64,000 bases of DNA from a virus (taxonomy: Duplodnaviria; Heunggongvirae; Uroviricota; Caudoviricetes), in the IMG/VR virus record IMGVR_UViG_2850773344_000009; one strand, given 5' to 3'. The first letter of the stretch is position 1. Each line of letters starts with the position of its first letter. This document shows, in pieces, positions 1 through 3,000 of this stretch. A program made the position numbers.

Positions 1-3000
1 TTACCTCGCATTTAAGTAAACTACGTTCTCCTCTTGTGCCGTATTTGTGCCATTGCGACTTATAATCGCATCGATTTTGCTCGCGTGCTCGGTGAGATGC
101 CCGGCTGAAAGGTGGGCGTATCTTTGAACCATTTCGAGAGTTTCCCATCCTCCCATCTCTTTAAGCGCAAGAAGAGAGACACCGGACTGAACCAGCCAGC
201 TTGCCCAGGTATGCCTCAGGTCATGGAAGCGGAAGTTGCTAATGCCTGCCCGCTTTAACGCTCCCTTCCATGCCTTGTTGCTGTCGGTTCTCATCTTCCT
301 TACCGCTGCTGTTTTTGTTCCGTCGCTTCGGTAGGCAGGTTTGGTGTGGACAAACACCCTGAGGTGTACTGGCAATAGCGGACACTACCATTTGTTCTTT
401 TTTTAAGCAGCCATCTGATGATATTTTTCCCTGAAGGCTGCCGGGGAGATATTCCCCAGACGAGAGTGACGACGCTGACGATTGTAGAAAATCTCAATGT
501 ATTCCCGTATTACTGAGATGGCTTCATCCCGGTTATTAAAACGATAGTGGCTCAGGCTCTCATTTTTCAGCGTTCCCCAGAAGCTTTCCATCGGAGCGTT
601 GTCGTAACAGTTACCTTTACGCGACATTGATGTTTTCAGACCAGACTGCTCCTGTATGACCCGGTAATCGTATGCGCAGTACTGTGAACCTCGATCAGAG
701 TGGTGGATTAGCCCGGCAGGTGGGCGCTGGCTCCTGAGCGCCATAAACAGGGCTTTACCTGTCAGCTCTTTTGTCATGCACTCTCCCATGGCGTAGCCGA
801 CAATTTCGCACGTATAAACATCTTTGATGCCAGCGAGGTACAACCATCCCTCCTGTGTGGCAACATACGTCAGGTCCGCCACCCAGACCTGATTTGGTGC
901 TGTAGGAGCGAACGTCTGGTTCAGCAGATTTGGCGCAACTGGCAGATTGTGGTTCGGGTTCGTAGTCGCTCTGAACTTGCGTTTCTGCTTACAGCGTAGC
1001 CTCAGCTCCTTACGAAGACGTGCCAGTCGGTCACGACCAACGATGATGCCATTCTCTGCCAGCTCCGTCTGGAGCCGCCGGGTTCCATATGTTTCGCGAG
1101 TGCGGATATGTGCCACCTTAATCTCCAGTTTTAGCCGCTCATCACTTTGTTTTCTGTCTGAGGGTTCATGCTGTACCCAGTTGTAATAACCGCTCCTGGA
1201 TACACCAAATACCTGACACATCGCTTCAATGGGAAATTGTTGTCGCCATTGTTCGATTAACGCGTATTTTTCAGCGACTCCTGTGCAAAATACGCTGTTG
1301 CTTTTTTTAATATATCTCGCTCAAGGCGAGCTTCATTTAACGCCTTACGCAGTTGCAGAATTTCAGATTCCAGTTCAGCCACCGTGCGGGAACCAGGAGT
1401 ACCGAGCCCTTTTCTGGCGGCGGTAACCCATTGTCCTAAAGTGCCTTCAGGAAGAGATAATCGGGAAGCGCCTTCACTGATCGAAAGTTGATTTTCAAGA
1501 ACCGTTCTGACAGCTTCGGCTTTGAACTCTTTAGAGTAACGTTGGGTTTTTCTGCTCATTATTAGCTCCTTCTGATGCCATTCTATTTCAGGAAGGAGTG
1601 TCCGTTAAACTCAGGCTACCTCATTTATCCGTTAAAAGGGATATCAGTTAAGATATCCCGTGTAGGGTATAAGCCATTATCAAAGCCACTCTGTAGGGAA
1701 TGGCTTTTGTGATGGCATCACTTACTCTTTACGCTGCTATCCCACTCATCCCGGAATTTTGATGGGTTATTGAAACCTTCTGCTGACATAACAACTTCTT
1801 CAATGTTTGGCTGAAATTAGGATGTCTTTCCATCAGTCCGCCACCACAAAGAATCTTTTTTGCCATAAGGCAGGAGGTTCATCTTTCAGTGGCTGCCAGT
1901 GTTATTTCCCCACTTACTGGCTTGGGTTGTTTCGCGGTACTGCCGTAACTGGTTGCCCAGAATAAATTCCGGTTTCATTATCAAGCTCACCCATTGATGG
2001 GCTTTGTAATGGATAGCTGTTGCTCAGTTCTCGTAATGCTTTGATTTTTCCGATAACGCAGTTTTGCGTTTGCCATCAGCAAGCGATATCGAGAGTCAAC
2101 TGCAGTTGCTCGCGCCAGTACTCGACATTTGCTTCAATAACCGGCTTATCCCATCGCCAGCGAGCCATCTCTCTTGCCCCATTGCTGGCTTTTGATTTCC
2201 GGTCATCGCGAATGCGACATGCTTGCTCATATTTCTGCTGCTCAGTCAGTTCACCGCGAAGCAGACTATCAATGTGCAGGTCGCACCACACAGCAAAACG
2301 AGCATCACACCAACGGGCAAATGCAACTGAAAGTTTTGGATGTAGCCACGTACCACCACCCCTGTCCTTTCGTGCCTTGCTGGTTTTTACATACCTCGAT
2401 TGTGAGGGATGTAAAATTTGAGATTCTTTCCCGGTCAACGCTTCGTCTAAAGCACGAACGTATTCAAGCGTTTCTGCCAAACTCATCCAGTTATCAATGC
2501 GTTTCCCAAATCTCTCAGCAACACCTGTGACGTTGATCCAACCATCAGTGTTGAAACTGACAATTTCACCTTTGTAATTAAGTGGCACGATATTCATAAC
2601 GTTTACCTACCATTTGAAATGAACCTTTGCCGCACAGAAAACCAGCCCACCGAGGCTCGCCAGCACTAACTGGTATCCTCAAAGGCCCATTCCAAAGGGG
2701 CAGGTTCGGTGTAAAAAACATGCGTTGCGGTACGCATTTATTGCAAAAAGCCCCGCATCGTGAGGCTCATTAAATGGACTTTGTGATTTGCAAAAAAATT
2801 ATTTCAGGCATTGCGTCCTGATGTATTCCTGCAGGTAGTTAACCTGCGCGGTTATCTTGTCGATTCCACTTCGGAGACGGTAATAATTGAGTTCAGCATC
2901 TGCTGTAAGTCCTGGGCTTTCTCCATCGCCCATGCCGCTGGCTCCGGTCTTTGACTTTGCACATGAGGCGGCGACTTGCAGCCGCTTACGCCCAGCAGAA

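What the first reader, a model, noticed from the sequence alone, without database searches (positions are those of the whole stretch)
1..1623. Inverted partial duplicate of the integrase 3' end abutting an IS600 without target-site duplication
The first 359 bp encode, on the minus strand, the last ~119 codons of an integrase essentially identical to the complete int 22 kb away on the plus strand. Homology ends exactly at the IS600 terminus, and the sequence on the other side of IS600 is unrelated to int. With no target-site duplication, this is a recombination junction, not a simple insertion. It implies a second att-int junction just left of the window and an IS600-mediated inversion or deletion. 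A second IS600 in opposite orientation at 42238 is a plausible partner.
Basis: seen in the sequence. Interest (0 to 1): 0.5.

Follow-up and report, generated by a model that had tools for sequence, protein, structure and literature searches.

The report
IS600-cut integrase relic beside thrW
The first 1.6 kb of the window is an old phage integrase gene stump, cut by the insertion sequence IS600, lying next to the tRNA-Thr gene of a serotype 5 Shigella flexneri; a serotype-converting prophage has been re-joined to the other end of that IS600 by recombination, which is an ordinary case of IS-driven prophage scrambling.

Summary
Bases 1-359 (minus strand) are the last 119 codons of an SfX/HK542-type integrase gene. 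IS600 occupies exactly 360-1623. Its flanks are ccc and ttt, whereas six control IS600 copies all carry perfect 3-bp duplications.

The prediction about the left edge also holds. In S. flexneri 5b strain 8401 and three sister assemblies, thrW lies 14 bp left of window position 1.

It is not a duplicate of the resident int. The stump is a different allele, with 5 synonymous changes. The same stump-IS600 junction sits on the attR side of a gtr prophage in two other genomes, so it is a resident relic of the thrW site.

The full int at 22053-23213 is followed by an intact attP core (23228-23273) and gtrA-gtrB-gtrV. The locus therefore holds both products of an attL x attR exchange: thrW-core-relic and int-core-gtrA. 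The phage DNA stays attached to the IS600 at a point about 0.84 kb from its cos end.

Best model: two reciprocal exchanges, one att x att and one IS600 x IS600.

The IS600 at 42238 is a truncated, nested copy. It fails the test for a direct inversion partner.

This is ordinary Shigella IS biology and of low interest.

The parts
1..359 (-). int' relic: the last 119 codons plus stop of an SfX/HK542-type thrW tyrosine integrase, cut at codon 268. The window starts at its stop codon. thrW lies 14 bp further left.
   Evidence: 354/359 to the full int, 5 synonymous transitions; allele comparison; thrW in CP000266.1; same relic in SFBU1023 and ECMA0423.
360..1623 (-). Complete IS600 (1264 bp). The orfB-side end is at 360 and the orfA-side end at 1623. 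orfA is 1257-1559 and orfB is 403-1221. Flanks are ccc and ttt, so there is no 3-bp target duplication.
   Evidence: HTH_Tnp_1 and rve domains; six control copies with duplications.
1624..2597 (-). cos-proximal end of the prophage late region, joined to the IS600 orfA-side end. It includes the KilA-N gene at 2076-2597. The junction corresponds to mEpX2 ...GGATAAA|CGGAGCC..., about 0.84 kb from that phage's right end.
21829..22176 (+). xis (115 aa, HTH_17), intact.
22053..23213 (+). Complete int (386 aa), SfX/HK542 type. Its 3' 359 bp are identical to SfX int. It is only 68% identical to the SfV/SfI int.
23214..23273 (-). 14-bp spacer plus the 46-bp att core (23228-23273, the reverse complement of the thrW 3' end). 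With int on one side and the SfV/SfI-type gtrA-side arm on the other, this is an unrecombined attP. It is inverted relative to thrW.
   Evidence: attP core annotated in SfI; SfV/SfI homology starts at 23210; HK542 homology ends at 23273; 287/292 to the published SfI-SfX junction.
23475..26007 (+). gtrA, gtrB and gtrV, the serotype V O-antigen glucosylation genes.
   Evidence: (GtrV 97.4% aa to SfV).
26129..42237 (-). SfV/SfI/SfII-like tail and head genes, ending in the C-terminal roughly 140 codons of the large terminase (41818-42237). The block is cut at SfI coordinate 1856.
42238..43074 (+). First 837 bp of a second IS600, inverted relative to the first copy. The orfA-side end abuts the terminase fragment (flank ata). 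The distal end is missing.
43075..44470 (-). About 87 bp of an IS600 orfA-side end, in the same orientation as the first copy, split by an IS629 (43081-44386, duplication CGT). The outer flank (act) is a truncated P22-like gp16 gene.

Best explanation
**What the parts are.** Bases 1-1623 are a resident relic of the thrW attachment site. An old SfX/HK542-type integrase gene was cut at codon 268 by IS600, and S. flexneri lineages carry this relic as part of their functional attB. In the serotype 5 lineage, an SfV-like phage carrying gtrV and its own SfX-type int/xis would normally lie between thrW and the relic, in the order thrW-attL-int...late genes-cos-virion-gtrVBA-attR-relic-IS600.

**What happened.** The present order differs from that canonical lysogen by two reciprocal exchanges.
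1. An att x att exchange rejoined thrW to the relic (attB-like) and rebuilt the phage attP (int-core-gtrA). It was most likely Int/Xis-mediated, because the switch lies within 81 bp that include the 46-bp core.
2. An IS600 x IS600 exchange joined the orfA-side end of the relic's IS600 to a phage site about 0.84 kb from cos. This was either homologous recombination with an IS600 inserted at ...GGATAAA|CGGAGCC..., or an inversion-type intramolecular transposition.

**Two routes, same product.** The prophage either excised and re-entered by IS600 homology, or underwent two successive inversions. The products are identical.

**Later events.** Further IS events removed about 2.7 kb (cos, small terminase, 5' end of the large terminase) and built the IS600/IS600/IS629 nest at 42238-44470.

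**Consequence (inferred).** attB and attP are now inverted in cis, so Int can only invert the 23-kb interval. It cannot excise the gtrV prophage.

**Shown versus inferred.** The junction sequences, the alleles, and the canonical halves in other genomes are shown. The order of events and the enzymes responsible are inferred.
For: - The IS600 has no target duplication, whereas six of six control copies have one. IS1, IS4 and IS629 inside the same block also have theirs.
- thrW, the 14-bp spacer and the relic are contiguous in CP000266.1.
- The identical relic-ccc|IS600 junction (1 mismatch in 359 bp) lies on the attR side of a gtr prophage, next to the same gtrA-side arm, in SFBU1023 and ECMA0423.
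- The same int sits in canonical attL position next to thrW in other S. flexneri chromosomes. Its 3' end has 0 mismatches, and L019 is 99.9% identical over 2.5 kb.
- The window has int-spacer-core-gtrA arm. HK542/mEpX2 homology ends at 23273 and SfV/SfI homology starts at 23210, so the switch lies in the shared core and spacer.
- The relic keeps its own allele at all 5 SNP sites, the nearest being 22 bp from the stop. The full int keeps the SfX allele throughout.
- The IS600 orfA-side flank is an exact phage target site.
- The 40.6-kb block 1624-42237 is colinear with one SfV-like genome opened near cos.
- One constant relic-side flank pairs with three different orfA-side flanks in three genomes: ttt-KilA, gtc-IS110-like and gtt-int.
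Against: - The reciprocal IS600 junction was not found in the window or in any fetched locus. The predictions were ...GGCTCCGTTT|IS600 and IS600|GTCAGAGCC....
- The right end of the phage block has been rebuilt by further events, so the second IS600 exchange partner cannot be identified.
- IS600 SNPs do not reveal a crossover point.
- Homologous exchange within the 81-bp interval cannot be told apart from Int-mediated exchange.
- The phage may never have occupied thrW in this lineage (see the first rival).
- Nothing here is experimental.
Confidence: 0.6

Rival explanations
1. The phage never integrated at thrW in this lineage. A circular SfV-like genome that already carried an IS600 near cos, with its native attP being the int(SfX type)-core-gtrA(SfV type) combination, recombined with the resident IS600 of an unoccupied thrW-relic-IS600 site.
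For: It gives the same left junction, the same intact attP and the same attB-like site. The block is colinear with a single phage genome opened near cos.
Against: A phage with intact int and xis and a free thrW site would be expected to use attB. IS600 insertions are most easily acquired while the phage is resident as a prophage. The expected direct-repeat IS600 at the far end is not present as predicted.
Confidence: 0.2
2. The stump is the int of a thrW-proximal prophage of a tandem pair. It was cut by IS600, and an inversion or deletion between that IS600 and the inverted copy at 42238 produced the present order. The int-core-gtrA junction would then be the middle junction of the tandem array.
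For: The two copies are in inverted orientation. Tandem SfI-SfX lysogens with exactly this kind of hybrid junction have been made experimentally (287/292 identity). The strain is called 5b, which implies both V and X factors.
Against: The predicted reciprocal junction (int 5' part ... ggg|IS600 orfA-side end) is absent, and the 42238 copy abuts terminase with ata. No int 5' part is found in the window. The same stump-IS600 junction lies distal to a prophage, on the attR side, in SFBU1023 and ECMA0423. It is therefore older than any thrW-proximal integrant and can only return next to thrW through an att exchange. Both ends of the block lying within 3 kb of cos would be a coincidence under a two-phage model.
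Confidence: 0.12
3. This is a simple IS600 insertion into a duplicated int gene, or an assembly artefact that collapsed or mis-joined IS600 copies.
For: None beyond the repeat nature of IS600.
Against: There is no 3-bp duplication although the boundaries were verified. There is no int 5' part. The identical junctions occur in at least five independent assemblies, including complete chromosomes.
Confidence: 0.02

Closest known systems
IS600 (IS3 family) of Shigella and E. coli
   Same: It is 1264 bp with the same terminal sequences, has orfA and orfB with HTH_Tnp_1 and rve domains, and is 99.4-99.6% identical to annotated copies.
   Different: This copy lacks the 3-bp target duplication that all six control copies have. 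Its two flanks come from different molecules or sites.
SfX-type attL at thrW (Sun et al. 2011, PMC3306764, Additional file 1 panel D) and the host 'putative phage int - IS600 - IS629' relic drawn in that paper's Figure 2
   Same: proA-thrW-TTTAAATCAATAAG-TTACCTCGCATTTAA... is identical. An int stump followed by IS600 downstream of thrW is a conserved host feature.
   Different: In strain 036 and in CP026810 the stump is of the SfI/SfV int type, and in CP026810 it measures 969 bp. Here it is the SfX/HK542 type and 359 bp. These are two independent IS600 hits in integrase genes at the same site.
Hybrid att junction of experimental tandem SfI-SfX lysogens (Sun et al. 2011, panel F)
   Same: gtrA-side arm of SfI/SfV type, then core, then SfX-type int; 287/292 identical to window 23196-23500.
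   Different: In the tandem lysogen it lies between two canonical prophages in the same orientation as thrW. Here it is inverted relative to thrW and is paired with an attB-like thrW-relic junction.
SHI-O serotype-conversion island of S. flexneri 5b 8401 (Nie et al. 2006, PMC1550401)
   Same: It is the same locus: gtrA, gtrB, gtrV and about 15 kb of SfV DNA near 300 kb, in a region subject to IS-mediated inversions.
   Different: The passages of the paper matched by a term search do not mention the int stump, the missing IS600 duplication or the intact attP. The paper attributes the large inversion around SHI-O to IS629.
IS-homology (Campbell-type) integration and IS-mediated inversions, as in Hfr formation and Shigella genome rearrangements (general knowledge)
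   Same: Recombinant IS copies have non-matching flanks, and the DNA between or beside them is inverted or inserted.
   Different: Here the exchange is combined with a site-specific att exchange, so both excision products remain linked in cis.

Membership tests
IS600 (IS3 family) | About 1264 bp with the characteristic terminal inverted repeats (TGAGGT...) | tested here: met
   360-1623 is 1264 bp, with the same ends as six annotated E. coli copies.
IS600 (IS3 family) | Two overlapping ORFs: orfA with an HTH domain and orfB with a DDE/rve domain | tested here: met
   orfA is 100 aa (HTH_Tnp_1) and orfB is 272 aa (HTH_21, rve, rve_3, rve_2). RefSeq annotates the fusion as a programmed frameshift.
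Simple IS600 insertion | Identical 3-bp direct repeats on both flanks, and target sequence continuous across the element | tested here: not met
   The flanks are ccc and ttt. The left flank is int and the right flank is the phage late region. Six of six controls have duplications.
SfX/HK542-type thrW tyrosine integrase gene | Full-length ORF of about 386 aa with N-terminal arm- and core-binding parts and a C-terminal catalytic domain | tested here: not met
   The fragment 1-359 holds only residues 268-386, including HDLRHTW and the RYAH tyrosine region. Residues 1-267 are absent. The gene at 22053-23213 meets the test.
attL of an SfX-type prophage | Complete thrW, 14-bp spacer, then the int stop codon with int reading towards thrW | tested here: met
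   Seen in CP000266.1 (L005 12598-12687). It is identical to panel D of Sun et al.. However, the int behind it is only a stump, so in function the site is an attB with a relic.
Phage attP (SfV/SfI/SfX group) | 46-bp core identical to the thrW 3' end, flanked by int on one side and the gtrA arm on the other, with no complete tRNA | tested here: met
   The core is at 23228-23273. The sequence diverges from thrW after ...CATTACGAAT. ARAGORN finds no tRNA in the window.
Reciprocal IS600 inversion with the 42238 copy | The partner copy carries the int 5' part and ggg at its orfA-side end, and AAA plus the phage continuation (CGGAGCC...) at its other end | tested here: not met
   The orfA-side flank is the terminase fragment with ata. 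The other end is deleted at IS position 837. No int 5' part or CGGAGCC continuation is present in the window.
Int/Xis-mediated attL x attR exchange | Both products present, with the switch point inside the core region | tested here: inconclusive
   Both products are present and the switch is confined to 81 bp that include the core. The enzyme responsible cannot be shown from sequence.

The most novel reading that the evidence does not exclude
The IS600 exchange has turned an excisable serotype-converting prophage into a locked one. thrW (attB-like) and the intact attP now lie 23 kb apart in inverted orientation, with intact int and xis between them. Int can therefore only flip the 23-kb early-region segment and cannot excise gtrV. 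The locus could act as a rare Int-driven invertible segment, and the arrangement could have been selected because it fixes serotype V.
Probability: 0.15. Interest if true: 0.4.

Novelty: new member of a known kind. Interest (0 to 1): 0.2.

Why it matters
The finding explains how the gtrV serotype-conversion genes of serotype 5 S. flexneri are held in the chromosome, and why the prophage cannot leave by normal excision. It shows that the thrW 'attB' of S. flexneri is itself a prophage relic, an int stump plus IS600, that comes in at least two independent versions. It also gives a worked example for annotators: a missing IS target duplication, an intact attP and a relic-bearing attB together diagnose combined site-specific and IS-mediated rearrangement. 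It does not reveal a new mechanism.

Tried and rejected
- **IS600 SNP pattern as a crossover marker.** The first copy differs from the SFBU1023 relic copy at 644, 780, 1127 and 1382, and two of these are private. No informative pattern emerged.
- **Metagenome scan with the junction 36-mer.** It gave 0 hits.
- **ProA homology search to reach other thrW contexts.** The search was wasted.
- **GtrX search to locate gtrX in strain 8401.** It found only E. coli P22-like prophages at the bio/ybhB region. This shows that gtrX travels with P22-like virion genes, but it says nothing about 8401.
- **EHEC IS600 copies next to lysis genes (H31-H34) as possible 'simple insertion' states of the phage target.** They are different sites, in or beside Rha genes, each with its own duplication.
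- **E. coli CE10.** It has thrW, an int remnant and IS600, but the junction is different, the remnant is degenerate, and the duplication gtg is normal. It is an independent event.
- **A tandem SfV + SfX model with the P22-like block as the SfX virion module.** It was considered and down-weighted. The P22-like block and its IS boundary also occur in a strain that lacks the gtrV block (CP026765). The relic evidence requires an att exchange in any case.
- **Search for predicted reciprocal junctions in all fetched loci.** None was found.
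Full report
**1. The observation**

Window 1-359 is the reverse complement of 22855-23213 at 354/359 identity. That stretch is codons 268-386 plus the stop of the complete 386-aa integrase gene at 22053-23213. The five differences are all synonymous transitions, so the two translations are identical. Homology stops exactly at 359/360, where TGAGGTGTACTGGC... begins.

The element at 360-1623 is 1264 bp. Its orfA (100 aa) and orfB (272 aa) lie on the minus strand and carry HTH_Tnp_1 and rve domains. 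It is 99.4% or more identical to copies that RefSeq names 'IS3-like element IS600 family transposase'. Its flanks are ccc and ttt.

As a control I extracted six independent IS600 copies from E. coli chromosomes using the same terminal sequences. All are 1264 bp and all have perfect 3-bp duplications: gtg, gac, cca, aat, atc and gtt. The boundary is therefore right and the missing duplication is real.

Inside the same prophage block, three other elements do have duplications: IS1 (15590-16357, cgccctttc), an IS4-family element (about 10896-12319, atacaccataggtgt) and IS629 (43081-44386, cgt). Only the IS600 copies are recombinant. No int 5' part exists elsewhere in the window.

**2. Where the window comes from and what lies to its left**

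An exact-protein look-up of the KilA-N gene next to the IS600 found the same arrangement in four sources: S. flexneri 5b strain 8401 (CP000266.1), two other NCBI assemblies and a JGI contig. They are 99.93-99.99% identical to the window over 12.6 kb. This rules out an assembly artefact.

In CP000266.1 the sequence left of window base 1 reads proA, then thrW (tRNA-Thr CGT), then TTTAAATCAATAAG, then TTACCTCGCATT..., which is window base 1 onward. This matches exactly the SfX attL sequenced by Sun et al. 2011.

**3. The stump is not a copy of the resident int**

- The full int belongs to the SfX/HK542/mEp213 group of thrW integrases (98% identity). It is only 68% identical to the SfV/SfI/SfII/SfIV int.
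- Its last 359 bp are identical to the SfX int in U82084 and to the canonical attL int of three other S. flexneri chromosomes.
- The stump carries a different allele. Three of its five differences are shared with HK542 and mEp213, and it has 0 mismatches to the full-length int of another genome, L021.
- A scan of species-representative genomes with the 36-mer across the stump/IS600 junction found it in S. flexneri SFBU1023 and in 'E. coli' ECMA0423.
- In those two genomes the same 359-bp stump (1 mismatch) and the same ccc|IS600 junction lie on the far side of a gtr prophage. The order there is gtrB-gtrA-arm-core-spacer-stump-IS600, followed by 124 bp whose sequence reads like the start of an IS110-type transposase gene (not database-checked), then IS629.

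The stump plus IS600 is therefore a resident relic of the thrW site. It corresponds to the 'putative phage int - IS600 - IS629' host features drawn by Sun et al.. A second version of this relic exists: CP026810 has an SfI/SfV-type stump of 969 bp with its own IS600, and strain 036's attB carries the same stump type.

**4. What is attached to the other end of the IS600**

From 1624 the window is a lambdoid late and early region in reverse orientation: the KilA-N gene, lysis genes, Q, the nin region, P, O, the immunity region and recombination genes. It ends with xis and the full int.

The joint at 1623/1624 corresponds to mEpX2 ...CCCTTTTAACGGATAAA|CGGAGCCAAC..., which is 838 bp from that phage's right end.

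After the int stop come the 14-bp spacer and the 46-bp core (23228-23273), then the SfV/SfI-type arm, then gtrA, gtrB and gtrV (GtrV is 97.4% identical to SfV's). Next come SfV/SfI/SfII-like tail and head genes, up to a large-terminase fragment that ends at 42237, equivalent to SfI coordinate 1856. ARAGORN finds no tRNA in the window.

Homology to HK542-type phages ends at 23273 and homology to SfV/SfI starts at 23210. The two modules therefore meet inside the shared spacer and core. The intergenic sequence is 287/292 identical to the experimental SfI-SfX tandem junction.

So 1624-42237 (40.6 kb, including IS1 and IS4) is colinear with one complete SfV-like genome that has an intact attP. It is opened near cos and lacks about 2.7 kb (cos, the small terminase and the 5' part of the large terminase).

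**5. Interpretation**

Other S. flexneri genomes show the two canonical halves of a normal lysogen.
- The attL half: thrW-core-int(full). The 3' end is identical and L019 is 99.9% identical over 2.5 kb.
- The attR half: gtrA-arm-core-stump-IS600.

The window and its left flank hold the two reciprocal combinations instead: thrW-core-stump (attB-like) and int-core-gtrA arm (attP). These are the products of an attL x attR exchange. Each int keeps its own allele up to 22 bp from the stop, so the switch lies within 81 bp that include the core. This points to Int/Xis, although homologous exchange is not excluded.

Yet the phage DNA is still in the chromosome, joined to the orfA-side end of the relic's IS600 at a genuine phage target site.

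Write the canonical lysogen as T c a . b c d I, where T is thrW, c the core, a the int-to-KilA segment, '.' the phage target site at which the IS600 exchange later occurs, b the cos-to-gtrA segment, d the stump and I the IS600. The present order is T c d I a' c' b', where a prime marks an inverted segment. This needs at least two reciprocal events: one att x att and one IS600 x IS600 (or an inversion-type intramolecular IS600 transposition).

Excision followed by re-entry through IS600 homology gives the same product as two successive inversions. I cannot tell these routes apart.

CP026799 shows a later step. It has the same thrW-stump-IS600, but the IS600 is joined at gtt|aaagcATG to the start of int, so window 1624-22044 is deleted. 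One constant stump-side flank with three different orfA-side flanks fits an IS600 whose orfA-side junction has been remade repeatedly.

**6. The proposed partner at 42238**

That copy is in the orientation expected for an inversion partner, but the other predictions fail. It abuts the terminase fragment with ata rather than the int 5' part with ggg. It stops at IS position 837, where it is fused to about 87 bp of an oppositely oriented IS600 end that itself carries IS629. Beyond that lies a truncated P22-like gp16 gene.

It cannot be the direct reciprocal partner. At most it is a product of further events. The predicted reciprocal junctions are absent from the window and from all fetched loci.

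**7. Comparison with the literature**

Nie et al. 2006 describe this region as SHI-O, with gtrABV and about 15 kb of SfV DNA, and mention an IS629-mediated inversion around it. The passages matched by my term search do not mention the stump, the recombinant IS600 or the intact attP. Sun et al. 2011 provide the att sequences and the precedent for hybrid att junctions.

The phenomenon, IS-mediated prophage rearrangement in Shigella, is well known. This is a new, cleanly resolved instance and not a new kind of system.

**8. Verdict**

The recombination junction and the neighbouring att are right. The 'duplicate' and the named partner are not.
- The best model is a resident relic plus an att x att and an IS600 x IS600 exchange, held with moderate confidence (0.6).
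- Interest is low (0.2).
- The most novel reading still open is that the inverted attB/attP pair, with intact int and xis, makes the gtrV prophage non-excisable and possibly invertible.

Noticed in passing
window 42238-44470: An IS nest. The first 837 bp of IS600 (+) are fused at 43074/43075 to about 87 bp of the orfA-side end of an IS600 in the opposite orientation. That fragment is itself split by a complete IS629 (43081-44386) with a CGT duplication. The fusion point is 6 bp from the IS629 end, so it is an illegitimate joint and not an IS-end event.
   Followed up: partly
window 1624-1640; L027-L031 right flanks; L048 4292-4300: The DNA next to the orfA-side end of IS600 often reads NNN-AT(C)..-TTAA(A). 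Examples are tttatccgttaaaa, gacatccagttaaa, aatatagttaaa, atcatcccttaa, gtttacctttaa and gttaaagc. It resembles the element's own subterminal CCGTTAAAC. This may be a target preference. It was seen in about 6 of 11 flanks and was not tested statistically.
   Followed up: no
window 3233-3710 (minus strand): The endolysin gene of the first lysis cassette is frameshifted. It reads as 108-aa and 65-aa ORFs against 158 aa in mEpX2, with the break after ...IKERGAL. The prophage is lysis-defective.
   Followed up: partly
window 10896-12319 and 15590-16357: An IS4-family element lies between the immunity region and cII, and an IS1 lies in the recombination region. Both have intact target duplications and so are simple insertions that further disable the prophage.
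   Followed up: partly
window 44471-57123 and 57130-58378: A P22/Sf6-like virion gene block (gp16' to large terminase') is truncated at both ends. On the right it is bounded by another IS3-family element (1249 bp shared with CP026765, where it is inverted). Part of the same block (window 49217-57129) and the same IS boundary occur in CP026765, and CP026810 has a P22-like tailspike stump next to its thrW relic. This points to an older P22-like prophage remnant shared by S. flexneri.
   Followed up: partly
window 62035-63575 versus 2799-3710: A second lambdoid lysis cassette (lysozyme, Rz) lies on the plus strand. Its Rz segment is 88.7% identical to the first cassette in inverted orientation, and another IS3-family transposase gene follows at 63595-63975. 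It is a third prophage fragment.
   Followed up: no
L003 (E. coli CE10, NC_017646.1 269842-271462): E. coli O7:K1 CE10 also has thrW, the same 14-bp spacer, a degenerate int remnant and an IS600. The junction is different and the duplication (gtg) is normal. It is a third independent IS600 hit in prophage debris at thrW.
   Followed up: yes
L041-L043, L049 (E. coli contigs): A GtrV protein identical to the window's is encoded in E. coli prophages at other chromosomal sites (near bioA/ybhB, dacC and focA) with different integrases and tail modules. The gtrABV cassette moves between phage backbones.
   Followed up: no
CP000266.1 around 236-308 kb (window and L005): In the strain 8401 record, proA-thrW and the pepD-phoE block lie on the minus strand to the right of the prophage DNA. 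That is inverted relative to the E. coli K-12 order (K-12 order from my own knowledge). It fits the large 'inversion 1' around SHI-O reported by Nie et al. 2006. Its end points lie outside the window.
   Followed up: no
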